64,000 nucleotides of DNA, from the NCBI RefSeq assembly GCF_018977255.1, contig NW_024704748.1, positions 25,792,001-25,856,000 on the forward strand. Direction: 5' to 3'. This document shows, piece by piece, positions 4,101-7,805 of the stretch (positions are counted from its first letter, which is position 1; each line of letters opens with the position of its first letter). Position numbers: made by a program. Origin of the DNA: Callorhinchus milii. Its lineage: Eukaryota.

Positions 4101-7100
4101 TTTTCCCTTTCGCGTTACCTTATCGACGTTGCTCTCGAAAAGCCTCCAGTTCTTTAATGGAGGCGGCGCTGCCACACACAGGAAAAAAGTATGGCAGCTT
4201 CAGGTTTTGTGAGGAGGATCATACGATCGTCGAGGCGGGCGGTTTTTTTTTAATTAAATCCGGTTTAAACCGTGGTGTCCCCCCCCCCCCCCTTTTTTTT
4301 GTCTGCTACGTGTGTGTGTGTGTGTCTTATTTTTTTTTCGGTGTCCTCGTATTTATTCCTGCAGTGAAACGGGAGTCGAGTTTTTAAATGCTTTGAGCAG
4401 TTTGGTTTTGTCAATGTGGTGTCATTTTTTTTATATACGTGTGTGTGTGTAGGATTCCCGAACTCCTGCCACGTTTTTGCTGTCGTACGTGGAAATTCTT
4501 TGTCTGGCTGTTATGTTTATGTAGAGTGCAATGATAAACAAGCAGTGGGGGTGGGGGGGGGGGGGGGGGTTGACGTGTTTCCTAAGTACCATTTCCAATG
4601 GGCTAAAGTTTTAGGCTCAGATTGAAATGTTAACGAATGTTTGAACAACTCTTAAAATCTTGTCTTTCCCCGGTAAAAGTGAGCGTAACTAACGGTGGGA
4701 GAAAATCAGACATGTGGATGGTCAGTGTCCACTCGTGATGGTGAAACATTATCTGTGATCTCCGATATTTATTTGAAAAGTAATCCTGTGGGAATAACTA
4801 GACTTGTGGTTTCATCCTGGGGGTCAGGTGCTTATAACTGACTGGATCATCACATGGTTTGTGAAGTCATTTGACACCCCCTTTTCCTTGGATGCTGTTA
4901 TTGAATGGTAATCACAGGGTATCCATTATTCAGTGTAAGTATACCAGCACTTACTCTCCAGAGAGAATTCCAACATCTATACTTTGAAGCTGTTCTGGAT
5001 TCTAAAGTGGGAAATTTTGTACTCAGTGTTGAGTGATACAAAACTTTGGCTCTTTTCTGCCCTAAGTTAGAATTCTGGAATAGCTTAGAGTACCTGAACC
5101 TACACAGCCAACTGTGTAAACTTTGGGAGATTCCATTAAGTTGGGTTCATCGCTGAAAATGCTGATATGTCCATCAGTAGCACAATAGAATTCAAAGCTT
5201 GATTTATTGGTGCCCTCTCATTTCGCTTACTGCATGAGAAATGTGTGCTATTGGGATTTTCATTTTAAAAATAAATCGTTTGGACTTGAGTAATTAAACG
5301 TTTATTCAAATTTTTAGCTTTTTACTGTATTTGGAGAAGTTCAAGCTTTTACTAGTTAGATATTCTTTTAACAAGTGTAATAGGATTGCATTTTTTGCTT
5401 TTGCCAGGGGATATTTTACAACATATTGGGCCTAGCTGTCATAATTTTAACCTAAAAAAGTCTATTTGTGAACAAGCTGGTGTCATAAACTTTCAGTGGT
5501 ATGATGTCATTTGAACCATACCATAACAGTATTTAGTGCCGTATAGTAAAGAGGAAAAGTAAACCAAACCAGATGGGGTGTGTTACAGTGGCAACATTTG
5601 CAGCATATCCGGTCAACAGAATACATTTTAGTTATTTCAATACACGTAGTCTCTTCAGTTCGATTTAGAATGTTCCTGCCTGTTCTATCCTGGTATCTTA
5701 ATTGGCTTTTATGTTTCATACTTTTCCCTTCCATGGTAGGTTCAACTAGTATGCCTCCTACATAGAATTCTGAGCATTATCCATACTGGGGTCTTGTCAT
5801 TCTTAGTCTTTACCAATCACATTGGTTCCTGCTGAAAATTATAATAAAGAACACAGAATATTTTGTGATGATAACAAAAGTTGAAGCTGTGTAGTATTGC
5901 TATATGAAACCAACCATATCATAGGTAATTCCACTTATTTAGCTAGACTAATTTGACTATTTTGCTTATGTTAGCCTAATACAATAGTGAAACTTTTCCA
6001 CATTGTGCTGCTCGCTATAGTGTGCTTTGACATAATTCCTTAACTGAGTGAGGGGGAAGGGTTTCTTCTCATTATGTTGTTAAAATAAAGCATTTCACGA
6101 TTGATCTGCTAACTCATGTATTGTAACTAGGTATATTACAAAAGGACCTTTGCCTTGCTATGTGATTGCCTTAGCAGTAATGAACAGCCAATTGTAAAGT
6201 TGCCTTACAAGACTGAATAGACCAATTCATTAGTTATTTTAGTTTAAAAAAATATTTTCACATAATTCATTAAGTTAAATATCATCTTTTAACATTCTTC
6301 AACTGCAAATTGTTCAATGTTGCTTTAGAATTTAATGGAAACCTTCAGTGAATTCCCAAAGTATTCATTTTCTTTTCCTATTGTCAGTGGACACATACTT
6401 TTTTTAATTGAATTGATTTTAAAAAGTATAATCATAATACATAAAATTGCCAAGGGAAAACAGCACAAAGGATAAGTTGTCTATTCTAAACTCCCTTGGG
6501 TGCTCACTTGATAGGTACTACCTTGAGTGAAACTGGGCTATGCAGTTTGATTTTCCCTAAGTAGGGCAAGTAAGGGTGAGGAGGGTAGAATTGGTTCAAC
6601 AACAAGAAAACAAATCGGCTCCTAATTGCTGAATAGTGATGTGTACCTTTTTTCTAAACCGGTCATGTGTGGCTGTCACATGAGGTACACGGTCAAGCTT
6701 GGGTGCAACCACAATTAAATAGCCTATCAGCACTGTCTAACCTTATGCATAAAGCACTTGGATGATGGTGGTGGGTTAAGTAGAATTATACCTCAGGGTG
6801 CTTCTGTCCTCTTAAAGGCAAAAAAAACCCATATTCTTTTCTAACAGGTTAAATGATATTTCAACATAATTTACATATATTCCTTTTAACAAGTCCAATA
6901 AGGATTCTGAGCTATTGCTGCCATGTGCAAGTGGTGTTTTAAGTAGACATAAGAACTGCTAGGGGAAAAAAGACCAAGGTCAATCTATTTGCCTTCCACT
7001 TTCCTGGTGGTCGCATACATACGTCCCGAACTATCCATGTACTATATCCCATAATGTTATTTCCTAAAAGAAAGCTATCTAATCCGTGTTTGACAAAATA

Positions 7101-7805
7101 AACCGAGGGATAAAGAAAGAAATGGGAGTAGGTGAAACTTTAGCTTGTTTAAGGTAGGGGATAAAATGAATTTGCCTCTTTTGCTGTATGCATTTGTGTG
7201 TCTGCTTAGGATTTTTAAATTTTTGTAAGGTTTATTTTTTTCTGGAGGGATGACGTTTGATAGCTTTTGACTTGTCATTCTTTTGTGGTTGTACTGTTTT
7301 TCAGCCAATTAGTTAGACTAATTAGAGGGCAGAATCATATTGAGGTATAATTCTACTTAACCCGCCACCATCATCCAAGTGCTTTACTCATAAGGTTAGA
7401 CAGTGCTGATAGGCTATTTAATTGTGGTTGCACCCAAGCTTGACCGTGCACCTCATATGACAGCCACACATGACCGGTTTAGAAAAAGGTACACATCACT
7501 ATTCAGCAATGAGAAGCCGATTTGTTTTCTTGTTGTTGAACCAATTCTAGCCTCCTTATCTATTCTAAAAGAGTGAATTTGTCATATTAAATTGGGCAGC
7601 AATTTGATAGTTCCTGTGAGAATTTTCTTCCTTGGCTTTTTTTTATTGCATCCAGTAACTGGGATGATGATGAAAATATTAATCTGACAAATGTCCGTAC
7701 TGAATTAACTATAGAAAAGATGTGTAATCCATTTCAGGTGGAAAGATTTAAGTTAACATTTGTGTGGAAATTGCTTCTTGCAAATAATGACTTTCTGATT
7801 TGTAA

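What the first reader, a model, noticed from the sequence alone, without database searches (positions are those of the whole stretch)
6579..7556. ~233-bp near-perfect, non-SINE inverted repeat in TIAL1 intron 1: a built-in long dsRNA
Seen: 6579-6812 pairs with 7324-7556. In the ~210-nt core I count 7 substitutions and one 1-nt bulge (~96%). In the sense pre-mRNA these give four A-C, one G-U, one A-G and one C-U apposition. The arms match no other repeat in the window and show no TSD or recognisable TIR end. The stem ends ~260 nt before the exon 2 acceptor, and a CR1 tail sits in the loop. Established: long duplexes with A-C mismatches are preferred ADAR substrates and can feed Dicer or trigger dsRNA sensors, and TIAR nucleates stress granules downstream of eIF2alpha kinases. 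Inference: a lineage-specific dsRNA/editing element that could couple ADAR or Dicer to TIAR splicing, or a foldback transposon. Caveat: A-C pairs also arise from ordinary transitions.
Basis: partly seen in the sequence, partly recalled or inferred. Interest (0 to 1): 0.7.

Follow-up and report, generated by a model that had tools for sequence, protein, structure and literature searches.

The report
Long inverted repeat in shark TIAL1 intron
A real 234-base inverted repeat sits in the first intron of the elephant-shark TIAL1 gene and should fold into a long RNA hairpin, but it looks like the neutral scar of a single insertion and not a built-in regulator.

Summary
Arms 6579-6812 and 7324-7556 are 220/234 complementary (13 substitutions, 1 indel). 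They lie in intron 1 (3237-7816) of Callorhinchus milii TIAL1, and the stem ends 260 nt before exon 2. As RNA the block folds at -516.8 kcal/mol, z = -44.7.

The arms match nothing else in the 64-kb window, although the major tRNA-derived SINE has 48 profile hits there. I found no Pol III head, no RT or transposase, and no target-site duplication at the repeat ends.

It abuts arm 2 but lies 88 nt left of arm 1. Those 88 nt are GC-rich like the arms. This asymmetry fits a single insertion with an internal strand switch better than a TIR transposon.

Nothing suggests selection for pairing: the 8 transitions split 4 A·C to 4 G·U. ADAR editing is plausible, because hyper-editing is abundant in elephant-shark brain (PMC5625713). 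A link to TIAR function is unsupported. Genome copy number, orthologous introns and RNA data could not be checked. This is an ordinary kind of element. Interest is low to moderate.

The parts
3208..3236 (+). TIAL1 coding exon 1 (start codon to donor)
   Evidence: Read from the sequence. Its translation plus the first base of exon 2 equals the first 10 residues of the named C. milii TIAR protein P0001.
3237..7816 (+). TIAL1 intron 1 (4580 nt), the host of the element
   Evidence: Donor after 3236 and acceptor before 7817. Both agree with the P0001 N-terminus.
6477..6490 (+). Left copy of a 13/14 direct repeat (11 exact, 6480-6490); candidate target-site duplication
   Evidence: The 11-mer occurs only at 6480 and 7559 in the window. 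A 13/14 match in this geometry was reached by 6 of 6000 random placements.
6491..6578 (+). 88-nt unique, GC-rich extension between the left direct repeat and arm 1
   Evidence: GC is 0.477, against 0.344 ± 0.059 in the surrounding intron. Only 0.4% of 2130 88-nt windows are as high. It has no match elsewhere in the window and no tRNA-like or other Rfam match.
6579..6812 (+). Arm 1 of the inverted repeat (234 nt)
   Evidence: GC is 0.432.
6813..7323 (+). Spacer or loop (511 nt). It is AT-rich outside the embedded repeat.
   Evidence: GC 0.305 left part, 0.329 right part.
6944..7110 (-). Truncated interspersed repeat inside the loop, probably a LINE 3' tail; family not identified
   Evidence: nhmmer finds 5 significant copies in the window. 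The four copies aligned share the same left boundary and two run on further to the right, so the element reads on the minus strand and is 5'-truncated.
7324..7556 (+). Arm 2 of the inverted repeat (233 nt)
   Evidence: GC is 0.425.
7556..7569 (+). Right copy of the 13/14 direct repeat (11 exact, 7559-7569). It abuts the end of arm 2.
7817..7914 (+). TIAL1 exon 2 (start of RRM1)
   Evidence: 31/32 identical to human TIAR chain 2cqi_A (58 bits), against 55.6 bits for TIA-1. Pfam RRM_1, E = 6.4e-9.

Best explanation
This is a real structural relic about 1.07 kb long (about 6491-7558) in intron 1 of Callorhinchus milii TIAL1. The most likely origin is one insertion event that copied the same 234-nt stretch twice in opposite orientations. 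The layout is: direct repeat, 88-nt unique tail, arm, 511-nt spacer, inverted arm, direct repeat. An insertion gives this layout if its synthesis switches strand once. Two such routes are twin-priming-like reverse transcription with overlapping cDNAs, and snap-back templated DNA synthesis.

Shown: the anatomy, the pairing and the position in the gene.

Inferred: the arms pair soon after transcription into a hairpin of about 230 bp. ADAR probably edits it promiscuously, as it does other long intronic duplexes. It leaves with the intron lariat and has no designed effect on TIAR. Its differences look like about 5.8% neutral divergence (Jukes-Cantor).
For: - The repeat is real and far beyond chance.
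- The host is TIAL1 intron 1 of C. milii. The penultimate coding exon is 100% identical to the named C. milii TIAR and exon 1 matches its N-terminus.
- The arms are unique in 64 kb, while the major SINE has 48 profile hits at E <= 1e-3 there and none in 5500-9000.
- A 13/14 direct repeat brackets the block. It is reached by 6 of 6000 random placements, and by 0 of the 2250 placements below 26000. The exact 11-mer geometry occurs in 69 of 62,600 placements.
- The 88 nt between the left repeat and arm 1 share the arms' GC content and not the intron's. So the inserted unit is asymmetric.
- No direct repeat of 5 nt or more abuts both arm ends.
- There is no sign of selection for pairing: 4 A·C against 4 G·U among 8 transitions.
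- Elephant-shark brain shows abundant hyper-editing of repeat-derived dsRNA (PMC5625713, passages).
Against: - I noticed the direct repeat after looking, so its roughly 0.001 frequency overstates the significance.
- There is no poly(A) or LINE-type tail at the predicted 3' end.
- The six SINE copies I aligned show no clear target-site duplications. The dominant retrotransposition machinery of this genome therefore may not make them.
- The twin-priming paper I read describes internal deletions at the junction, not a 234-nt overlap (PMC2837659, passages).
- The spacer is as AT-rich as the local intron, which would also suit a purely local inverted duplication.
- Copy number in the genome, the orthologous intron and RNA-seq were all out of reach. 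Neutrality and the one-off origin are therefore inferences.
Confidence: 0.5

Rival explanations
1. A non-autonomous cut-and-paste DNA transposon with long terminal inverted repeats (foldback, MITE or Mutator-like), inserted in the intron and since decayed.
For: The 234-nt arms with a non-coding interior look like long TIRs. An 11-14-nt flanking direct repeat is in the range I recall for Mutator-like elements.
Against: - The left direct repeat is 88 nt away from arm 1, and no repeat of 5 nt or more abuts both arms.
- Only chance 7-8-nt matches occur within the arms, so there are no tandem sub-repeats.
- There are no further copies in 64 kb.
- A review states that TEs other than non-LTR retrotransposons contribute little in the elephant shark (PMC5381603, passages).
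Confidence: 0.2
2. A purely local inverted duplication. A 234-nt piece of the intron was copied in reverse 511 nt away by replication template switching, and the flanking direct repeat is coincidence.
For: The arms are unique in the window. The spacer outside its embedded repeat has the same AT-rich composition as the intron. Differences cluster at the inner junction, with 5 of 14 in the last 17 nt (p = 0.003), as error-prone break-proximal synthesis might leave (inference).
Against: The 13/14 direct repeat abuts arm 2. The GC-rich block extends 88 nt beyond arm 1 up to the other repeat copy. This model leaves both unexplained.
Confidence: 0.2
3. A selected cis-acting dsRNA element, acting as an ADAR or Dicer substrate or as a splicing modulator of TIAL1.
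For: The hairpin is very stable and lies 260 nt upstream of exon 2. ADAR hyper-editing exists in this species (PMC5625713). Human and macaque TIAL1 transcripts are listed among ADAR1-edited transcripts (PMC6264153, one passage). In C. elegans, intronic dsRNA is associated with highly expressed essential genes (PMC6239182, abstract).
Against: - Wobble-preserving changes show no excess: 4 A·C against 4 G·U.
- The arms match no possible target within the window.
- No Rfam family matches.
- Both arms lie in one intron, so no exon is looped out.
- Other long inverted pairs occur in the same window, for example 226 nt at 89%.
Confidence: 0.07
4. Two independent insertions of an uncharacterised low-copy repeat in opposite orientation (an inverted-Alu-like pair), or an assembly artefact.
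For: Inverted SINE pairs are common in this window: 40 inverted pairs of 50 nt or more within 5 kb. The left unit (88 + 234 nt) against the shorter right unit could be read as a full-length copy beside a 5'-truncated copy.
Against: - No other copy exists in 64 kb.
- There is no Pol III head and no similarity to the major SINE.
- Two hits of a rare family within 1 kb are improbable (inference).
- Against an artefact: the arms differ by 13 substitutions and are separated by unique sequence with no N nearby.
Confidence: 0.08

Closest known systems
Inverted-repeat SINE pairs in introns and UTRs (for example inverted Alu pairs), the main ADAR hyper-editing substrates
   Same: An intramolecular, near-perfect duplex of a few hundred bp inside a Pol II transcript. 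Most hyper-editing across Metazoa, elephant shark included, lies in such repeat-derived dsRNA (PMC5625713, abstract and passages).
   Different: The arms are not the window's SINE, have no tRNA-like head and have no other copy in 64 kb. A single direct repeat brackets the pair as a whole.
Twin-priming (5'-inverted) LINE-1 insertions
   Same: Target-site duplications bound two inverted fragments of one template, and the reported TSDs are 7-20 bp (PMC2837659, passages). The topology here has one arm abutting one repeat copy and a unique tail abutting the other. That is what overlapping twin-primed cDNAs would give (my derivation).
   Different: There is no poly(A), no LINE sequence in the arms or tail, and a 234-nt overlap where the paper describes internal deletions. 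Passages from two papers name L2, CR1-like LINEs and SINEs as this genome's main TEs.
Self-folding palindromic MITEs (for example the ~200-bp Harbinger repeats of Xenopus) and foldback or long-TIR DNA transposons
   Same: One unit folds on itself into a tight dsRNA and is heavily edited (PMC5625713, passages).
   Different: Those are high-copy, have short loops and have duplications abutting both ends. Here the loop is 511 nt, no duplication abuts both arms and no second copy is seen.
SOS splicing of DNA transposons triggered by paired ITRs
   Same: The trigger is base-pairing of inverted repeats in the RNA (PMC12779559, abstract and passages).
   Different: It was shown for exonic and 3'-UTR insertions. 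[quoted passage not shown] This element is intronic.
Hairpin-RNA (endo-siRNA) loci of Drosophila and mouse oocytes (recalled, no paper read)
   Same: A long inverted repeat is transcribed as one hairpin.
   Different: Those arms derive from, and target, another gene. No such homology is seen here within the window, and small RNAs could not be checked.

Membership tests
Cut-and-paste DNA transposon with long TIRs (foldback, MITE, Mutator-like) | Terminal inverted repeats | tested here: met
   234-nt arms, 94% complementary.
Cut-and-paste DNA transposon with long TIRs (foldback, MITE, Mutator-like) | Target-site duplication directly abutting both TIRs | tested here: not met
   No direct repeat of 5 nt or more within ±15 nt of both ends. 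The 13/14 repeat abuts arm 2 only and lies 88 nt from arm 1.
Cut-and-paste DNA transposon with long TIRs (foldback, MITE, Mutator-like) | Multiple copies in the genome | not testable with these tools
   No eukaryotic genome DNA was available. There are 0 further copies in the 64-kb window. A protein-space proxy search with an arm ORF found nothing, which is a weak negative.
Cut-and-paste DNA transposon with long TIRs (foldback, MITE, Mutator-like) | Foldback type only: arms built of tandem sub-repeats | tested here: not met
   Only chance 7-8-nt matches within the arms.
Inverted SINE pair | Each arm is a SINE with a Pol III (tRNA, 5S or 7SL) head | tested here: not met
   There is no ARAGORN or Rfam match in 6440-6850 or in 5500-8500. 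The major-SINE profile gives 0 hits in 6300-7800 even at E <= 100.
Inverted SINE pair | Arms belong to an interspersed family | tested here: inconclusive
   No other copy in 64 kb. Genome-wide copy number is untested.
Twin-priming-type retro-insertion | Variable-length TSD bounding two inverted fragments of one template | tested here: inconclusive
   A 13/14 direct repeat with the expected asymmetric topology is present. It was found post hoc and no donor locus is known.
Twin-priming-type retro-insertion | Poly(A) or LINE 3' tail at one end | tested here: not met
   Neither end shows an A or T run. Neither the tail nor the arms match any window repeat.
ADAR hyper-editing substrate | Long, near-perfect intramolecular duplex in a transcribed region | tested here: met
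   -516.8 kcal/mol, z = -44.7, inside TIAL1 intron 1.
ADAR hyper-editing substrate | Clusters of A-to-G mismatches between RNA and DNA at the locus | not testable with these tools
   No RNA-seq data were available. Only species-level editing is known from PMC5625713.
Hairpin-RNA / endo-siRNA locus | Arms homologous to a target gene; 21-23-nt small RNAs | not testable with these tools
   No homology to anything in the window, TIAL1 exons included. The rest of the genome and small-RNA data were unavailable.

The most novel reading that the evidence does not exclude
The block is a de novo hairpin locus created by a single strand-switching insertion in a genome dominated by CR1/L2 retroelements. 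It has since been kept in TIAL1 intron 1 as an ADAR or Dicer substrate that tunes expression of the stress-granule protein TIAR. That would parallel the ADAR1-edited repeat duplexes reported for primate TIAL1 transcripts (PMC6264153).
Probability: 0.04. Interest if true: 0.65.

Novelty: new member of a known kind. Interest (0 to 1): 0.2.

Why it matters
If the main reading is right, this is one more intronic inverted repeat that makes self dsRNA, and it has no special importance for TIAR. It has two modest points of interest.

First, it is a clean non-SINE duplex in a slowly evolving genome. That makes it a convenient single-locus test of ADAR hyper-editing in a chimaera.

Second, its asymmetric layout bracketed by a direct repeat may record a strand-switching insertion mechanism in a genome where L1-type twin priming is not expected. 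A single blastn against the genome would settle this.

Tried and rejected
- **Known RNA families.** The Rfam E-value scans of 5500-8500 and 6440-6850 gave only noise: U6 at 19.4 bits outside the element, and SNORA81 at 12.6 bits. The gathering-threshold scan of the whole window gave only 5 tRNA-like SINE heads.
- **SINE identity.** A two-round nhmmer profile of the major SINE gave 48 hits, then 87 hits, in the window. It gave none in 5500-9000, and none in 6300-7800 at E <= 100.
- **Weak similarity of the left flank to the loop repeat** (E = 0.21). A profile of that repeat did not reproduce it, so I dropped it.
- **Coding content.** There are 23 stop-to-stop ORFs of 30 aa or more in 6480-7570, the longest 77 aa. 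Four of them gave no Pfam hit, and none of the 71 window ORFs scanned gave an RT or transposase hit.
- **Other copies, by proxy.** I sent the arm ORF 7400-7576 to the 5.8-billion-protein search as a stand-in for a DNA copy search. It found no candidate. This is a weak negative, because spurious ORFs are rarely predicted.
- **Superfamily end signatures.** TA, TWA, TTAA and 8-bp patterns at the repeat ends gave nothing of 5 nt or more. Only trivial 3-4-nt matches appeared.
- **Penelope-like elements.** I considered them because of their inverted partial copies (recalled). No hammerhead ribozyme match appeared.
- **Target-site duplications on SINE copies.** I looked at six aligned copies to see whether the local machinery makes them. 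None was evident.
- **Literature.** Searches listed no paper describing this element. None of these searches was specific enough to prove that it is unpublished.
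Full report
**Observation.** The repeat finder reports 6649-6812/7324-7487 (164 nt, 94%) and 6579-6652/7483-7556 (74 nt, 96%). blastn joins them into one alignment of 220/234 identities with one gap, E = 2e-102. My base-by-base alignment gives 13 substitutions (8 transitions, 5 transversions) and one extra T at 6648. 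As RNA, 6579-7556 folds to -516.8 kcal/mol, against -244.6 ± 6.1 for 20 dinucleotide-preserving shuffles (z = -44.7, 0 of 20 as stable). The minimum-free-energy structure is the long stem. From the difference positions, the longest uninterrupted Watson-Crick run is 60 bp.

**Host gene and organism.** The window is not human. RRM-type exons lie on the + strand. Exon 2 (7817-7914) is 31/32 identical to the solved human TIAR RRM1 and scores above TIA-1 (58 against 55.6 bits). The penultimate coding exon (21200-21341) is 100% identical over its whole length to 'nucleolysin TIAR isoform X1 [Callorhinchus milii]' (P0001). It is 94% identical to TIAR of a ray and of a shark. The start codon at 3208 and the donor after 3236 give the first ten residues of P0001. 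So intron 1 is 3237-7816, and the stem ends 260 nt before exon 2. I searched the exons one at a time. I neither built nor searched a joined model. The N runs (1925-2060, 12598, 46686) were left as they are.

**What the arms are not.**
- They match nothing else in the 64 kb. This holds for blastn at word size 9, for the whole-window self-comparison (512 pairs, one involving the arms) and for an nhmmer profile of the two arms (next best E = 1.9).
- They are not the dominant repeat. That repeat is a tRNA-derived SINE, with three tRNA-Ala-like heads by ARAGORN and five by Rfam. Its profile has 48 hits at E <= 1e-3 in the window. It has none between 5500 and 9000, and none in 6300-7800 even at E <= 100.
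- No tRNA, 5S, 7SL, hammerhead, snoRNA or miRNA family matches the element.
- The longest stop-to-stop ORF in the block is 77 aa. The four element ORFs sent to Pfam hit nothing, and none of the 71 window ORFs scanned shows a reverse transcriptase or transposase.

So 'non-SINE' stands as far as it can be tested here.

**The loop.** The 511-nt loop carries a 167-nt interspersed repeat (6944-7110) with five significant copies in the window. The four copies I aligned share one end and differ in length at the other, as LINE 3' tails do. I could not confirm the label CR1.

**Ends and origin.** No direct repeat of 5 nt or more abuts both arm ends, allowing ±15 nt and 6 nt of asymmetry. There are no sub-repeats in the arms. 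A canonical TIR or foldback transposon is therefore not supported.

6477-6490 and 7556-7569 are 13/14 identical, with an exact 11-mer that occurs nowhere else in the window. A match this good in this geometry was reached by 6 of 6000 random placements, and by 0 of the 2250 placements below 26000. The exact 11-mer geometry occurs in 69 of 62,600 placements. The figure is post hoc and should be discounted, but it remains suggestive.

The right copy abuts arm 2. The left copy lies 88 nt left of arm 1. Those 88 nt have GC 0.477, like the arms (0.43). The neighbouring intron averages 0.344, and only 0.4% of 2130 windows are as high. The unit that looks foreign is therefore asymmetric: repeat, 88-nt tail, arm, spacer, arm, repeat.

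A TIR transposon does not give this topology. An insertion does, if its synthesis switches strand once and copies 234 nt twice. One route is twin-priming-like reverse transcription with overlapping cDNAs. Another is snap-back templated DNA synthesis. Both are my derivation.

Several points count against this.
- There is no poly(A) or LINE tail.
- The six SINE copies I aligned show no clear duplications.
- The twin-priming paper I read speaks of deletions at the junction, not duplications (PMC2837659, abstract and passages).
- The spacer is as AT-rich as the local intron.

A purely local inverted duplication and a decayed long-TIR element therefore remain live rivals. A review notes that TEs other than non-LTR retrotransposons contribute little in this genome (PMC5381603, passages; see also PMC1845163, passages). 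That lowers the prior for a DNA transposon.

**Function.** The hairpin should form in the pre-mRNA. ADAR hyper-editing of long repeat-derived dsRNA is abundant in elephant-shark brain: 200,171 sites, 81% in repeats (PMC5625713, Table 1, passages). Editing of this stem is therefore a reasonable expectation.

Nothing in the sequence marks it as more than that.
- A transition in one arm of a perfect duplex gives A·C or G·U with equal chance. The 8 transitions split 4 to 4. There is thus no excess of A-C and no excess of structure-preserving wobble.
- The ts:tv ratio of 8:5 and the divergence of 5.8% (3.8% without the inner 17 nt) look like ordinary decay.
- Differences cluster at the inner junction, with 5 of 14 in 17 nt (p = 0.003). 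Gene conversion of the centre or error-prone junction synthesis could explain this. I cannot tell which.
- Both arms lie in one intron, upstream of the branch-site region. The structure loops out only intronic sequence and leaves with the lariat.
- ITR-triggered SOS splicing did not act on two intronic Tc1 insertions (PMC12779559, abstract and passages).
- Other long inverted pairs exist in the window: 40 of 50 nt or more within 5 kb, including a 226-nt, 89% SINE pair. This one is the best paired and the only one among the 25 listed that is not part of the window's repeat families.

Two published observations keep a small door open. Human and macaque TIAL1 are named among ADAR1-edited transcripts (PMC6264153, one passage). 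Intronic dsRNA is associated with highly expressed essential genes in C. elegans (PMC6239182, abstract). A paper on intron-derived dsRNA and PKR (PMC13189227) I saw only in a search listing.

**What stayed unchecked.**
- Genome copy number, orthologous introns, RNA-seq editing, small RNAs and long-read support.
- No eukaryotic genome DNA was available to search. The one genome collection offered holds bacteria and archaea only, so I did not use it.
- A proxy search in protein space with an arm ORF found nothing. This is a weak negative.
- I did not open the supplements of PMC5625713.
- My literature searches listed no description of this element, but they were not specific enough to show that none exists.

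**Verdict.** The thing is a real, non-SINE, 234-nt inverted repeat in C. milii TIAL1 intron 1. It is most likely the neutral product of a single insertion or duplication event, and it incidentally encodes a long intronic dsRNA. It is a new member of a known kind, and interest is low to moderate.

Noticed in passing
window 2063-2897 (next to the N run 1925-2060): An 835-nt imperfect (TGT)n microsatellite (279 copies, 71% matches) lies directly upstream of the GC-rich TIAL1 promoter region at about 2890-3240. GC skew is about +0.8 and AT skew about -0.84.
   Followed up: partly
window 46716-47000 (+): An ORF with a Pfam RGS domain match (E = 1.1e-7) lies downstream of TIAL1, suggesting an RGS-family neighbour gene. 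TIAL1 next to RGS10 is the human arrangement as I recall it; I did not check this.
   Followed up: no
window-wide, for example 1520-1850, 30120-30475, 53350-53675, 56195-56570, 61770-62090: A tRNA-derived SINE of about 320-330 nt with an (ATT)n tail dominates the window. It has 48 profile hits at E <= 1e-3, is concentrated beyond about 26 kb, and shows no evident target-site duplications on six aligned copies.
   Followed up: partly
window 53392-53617 and 57601-57826: A second long inverted repeat, 226 nt and 89% complementary with a 3983-nt spacer, made of two SINE copies. Whether it lies in a transcript is unknown.
   Followed up: no
window 35371-35620 and 37445-37661: Two copies of the same repeat family as the loop insert lie in inverted orientation about 1.8 kb apart, with their shared ends facing outward.
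   Followed up: no
window 7295-7327 versus 7807-7839: The 33 nt just before arm 2 resemble the exon 2 acceptor region: 73% identity including an exact 11-mer with a pyrimidine tract and AG. This acceptor-like site sits at the base of the stem. It may well be a chance match.
   Followed up: no
window 10577-10765 (+): The exon-3 ORF contains the 17-residue insert of the long TIAR isoform directly upstream of the constitutive part, as in P0001. An alternative acceptor is therefore likely here.
   Followed up: no
window 8127-8219 (-): A weak U6 snRNA-like match in intron 2 (19.4 bits against a gathering score of 44, E = 0.13). It is probably noise or a decayed pseudogene.
   Followed up: no
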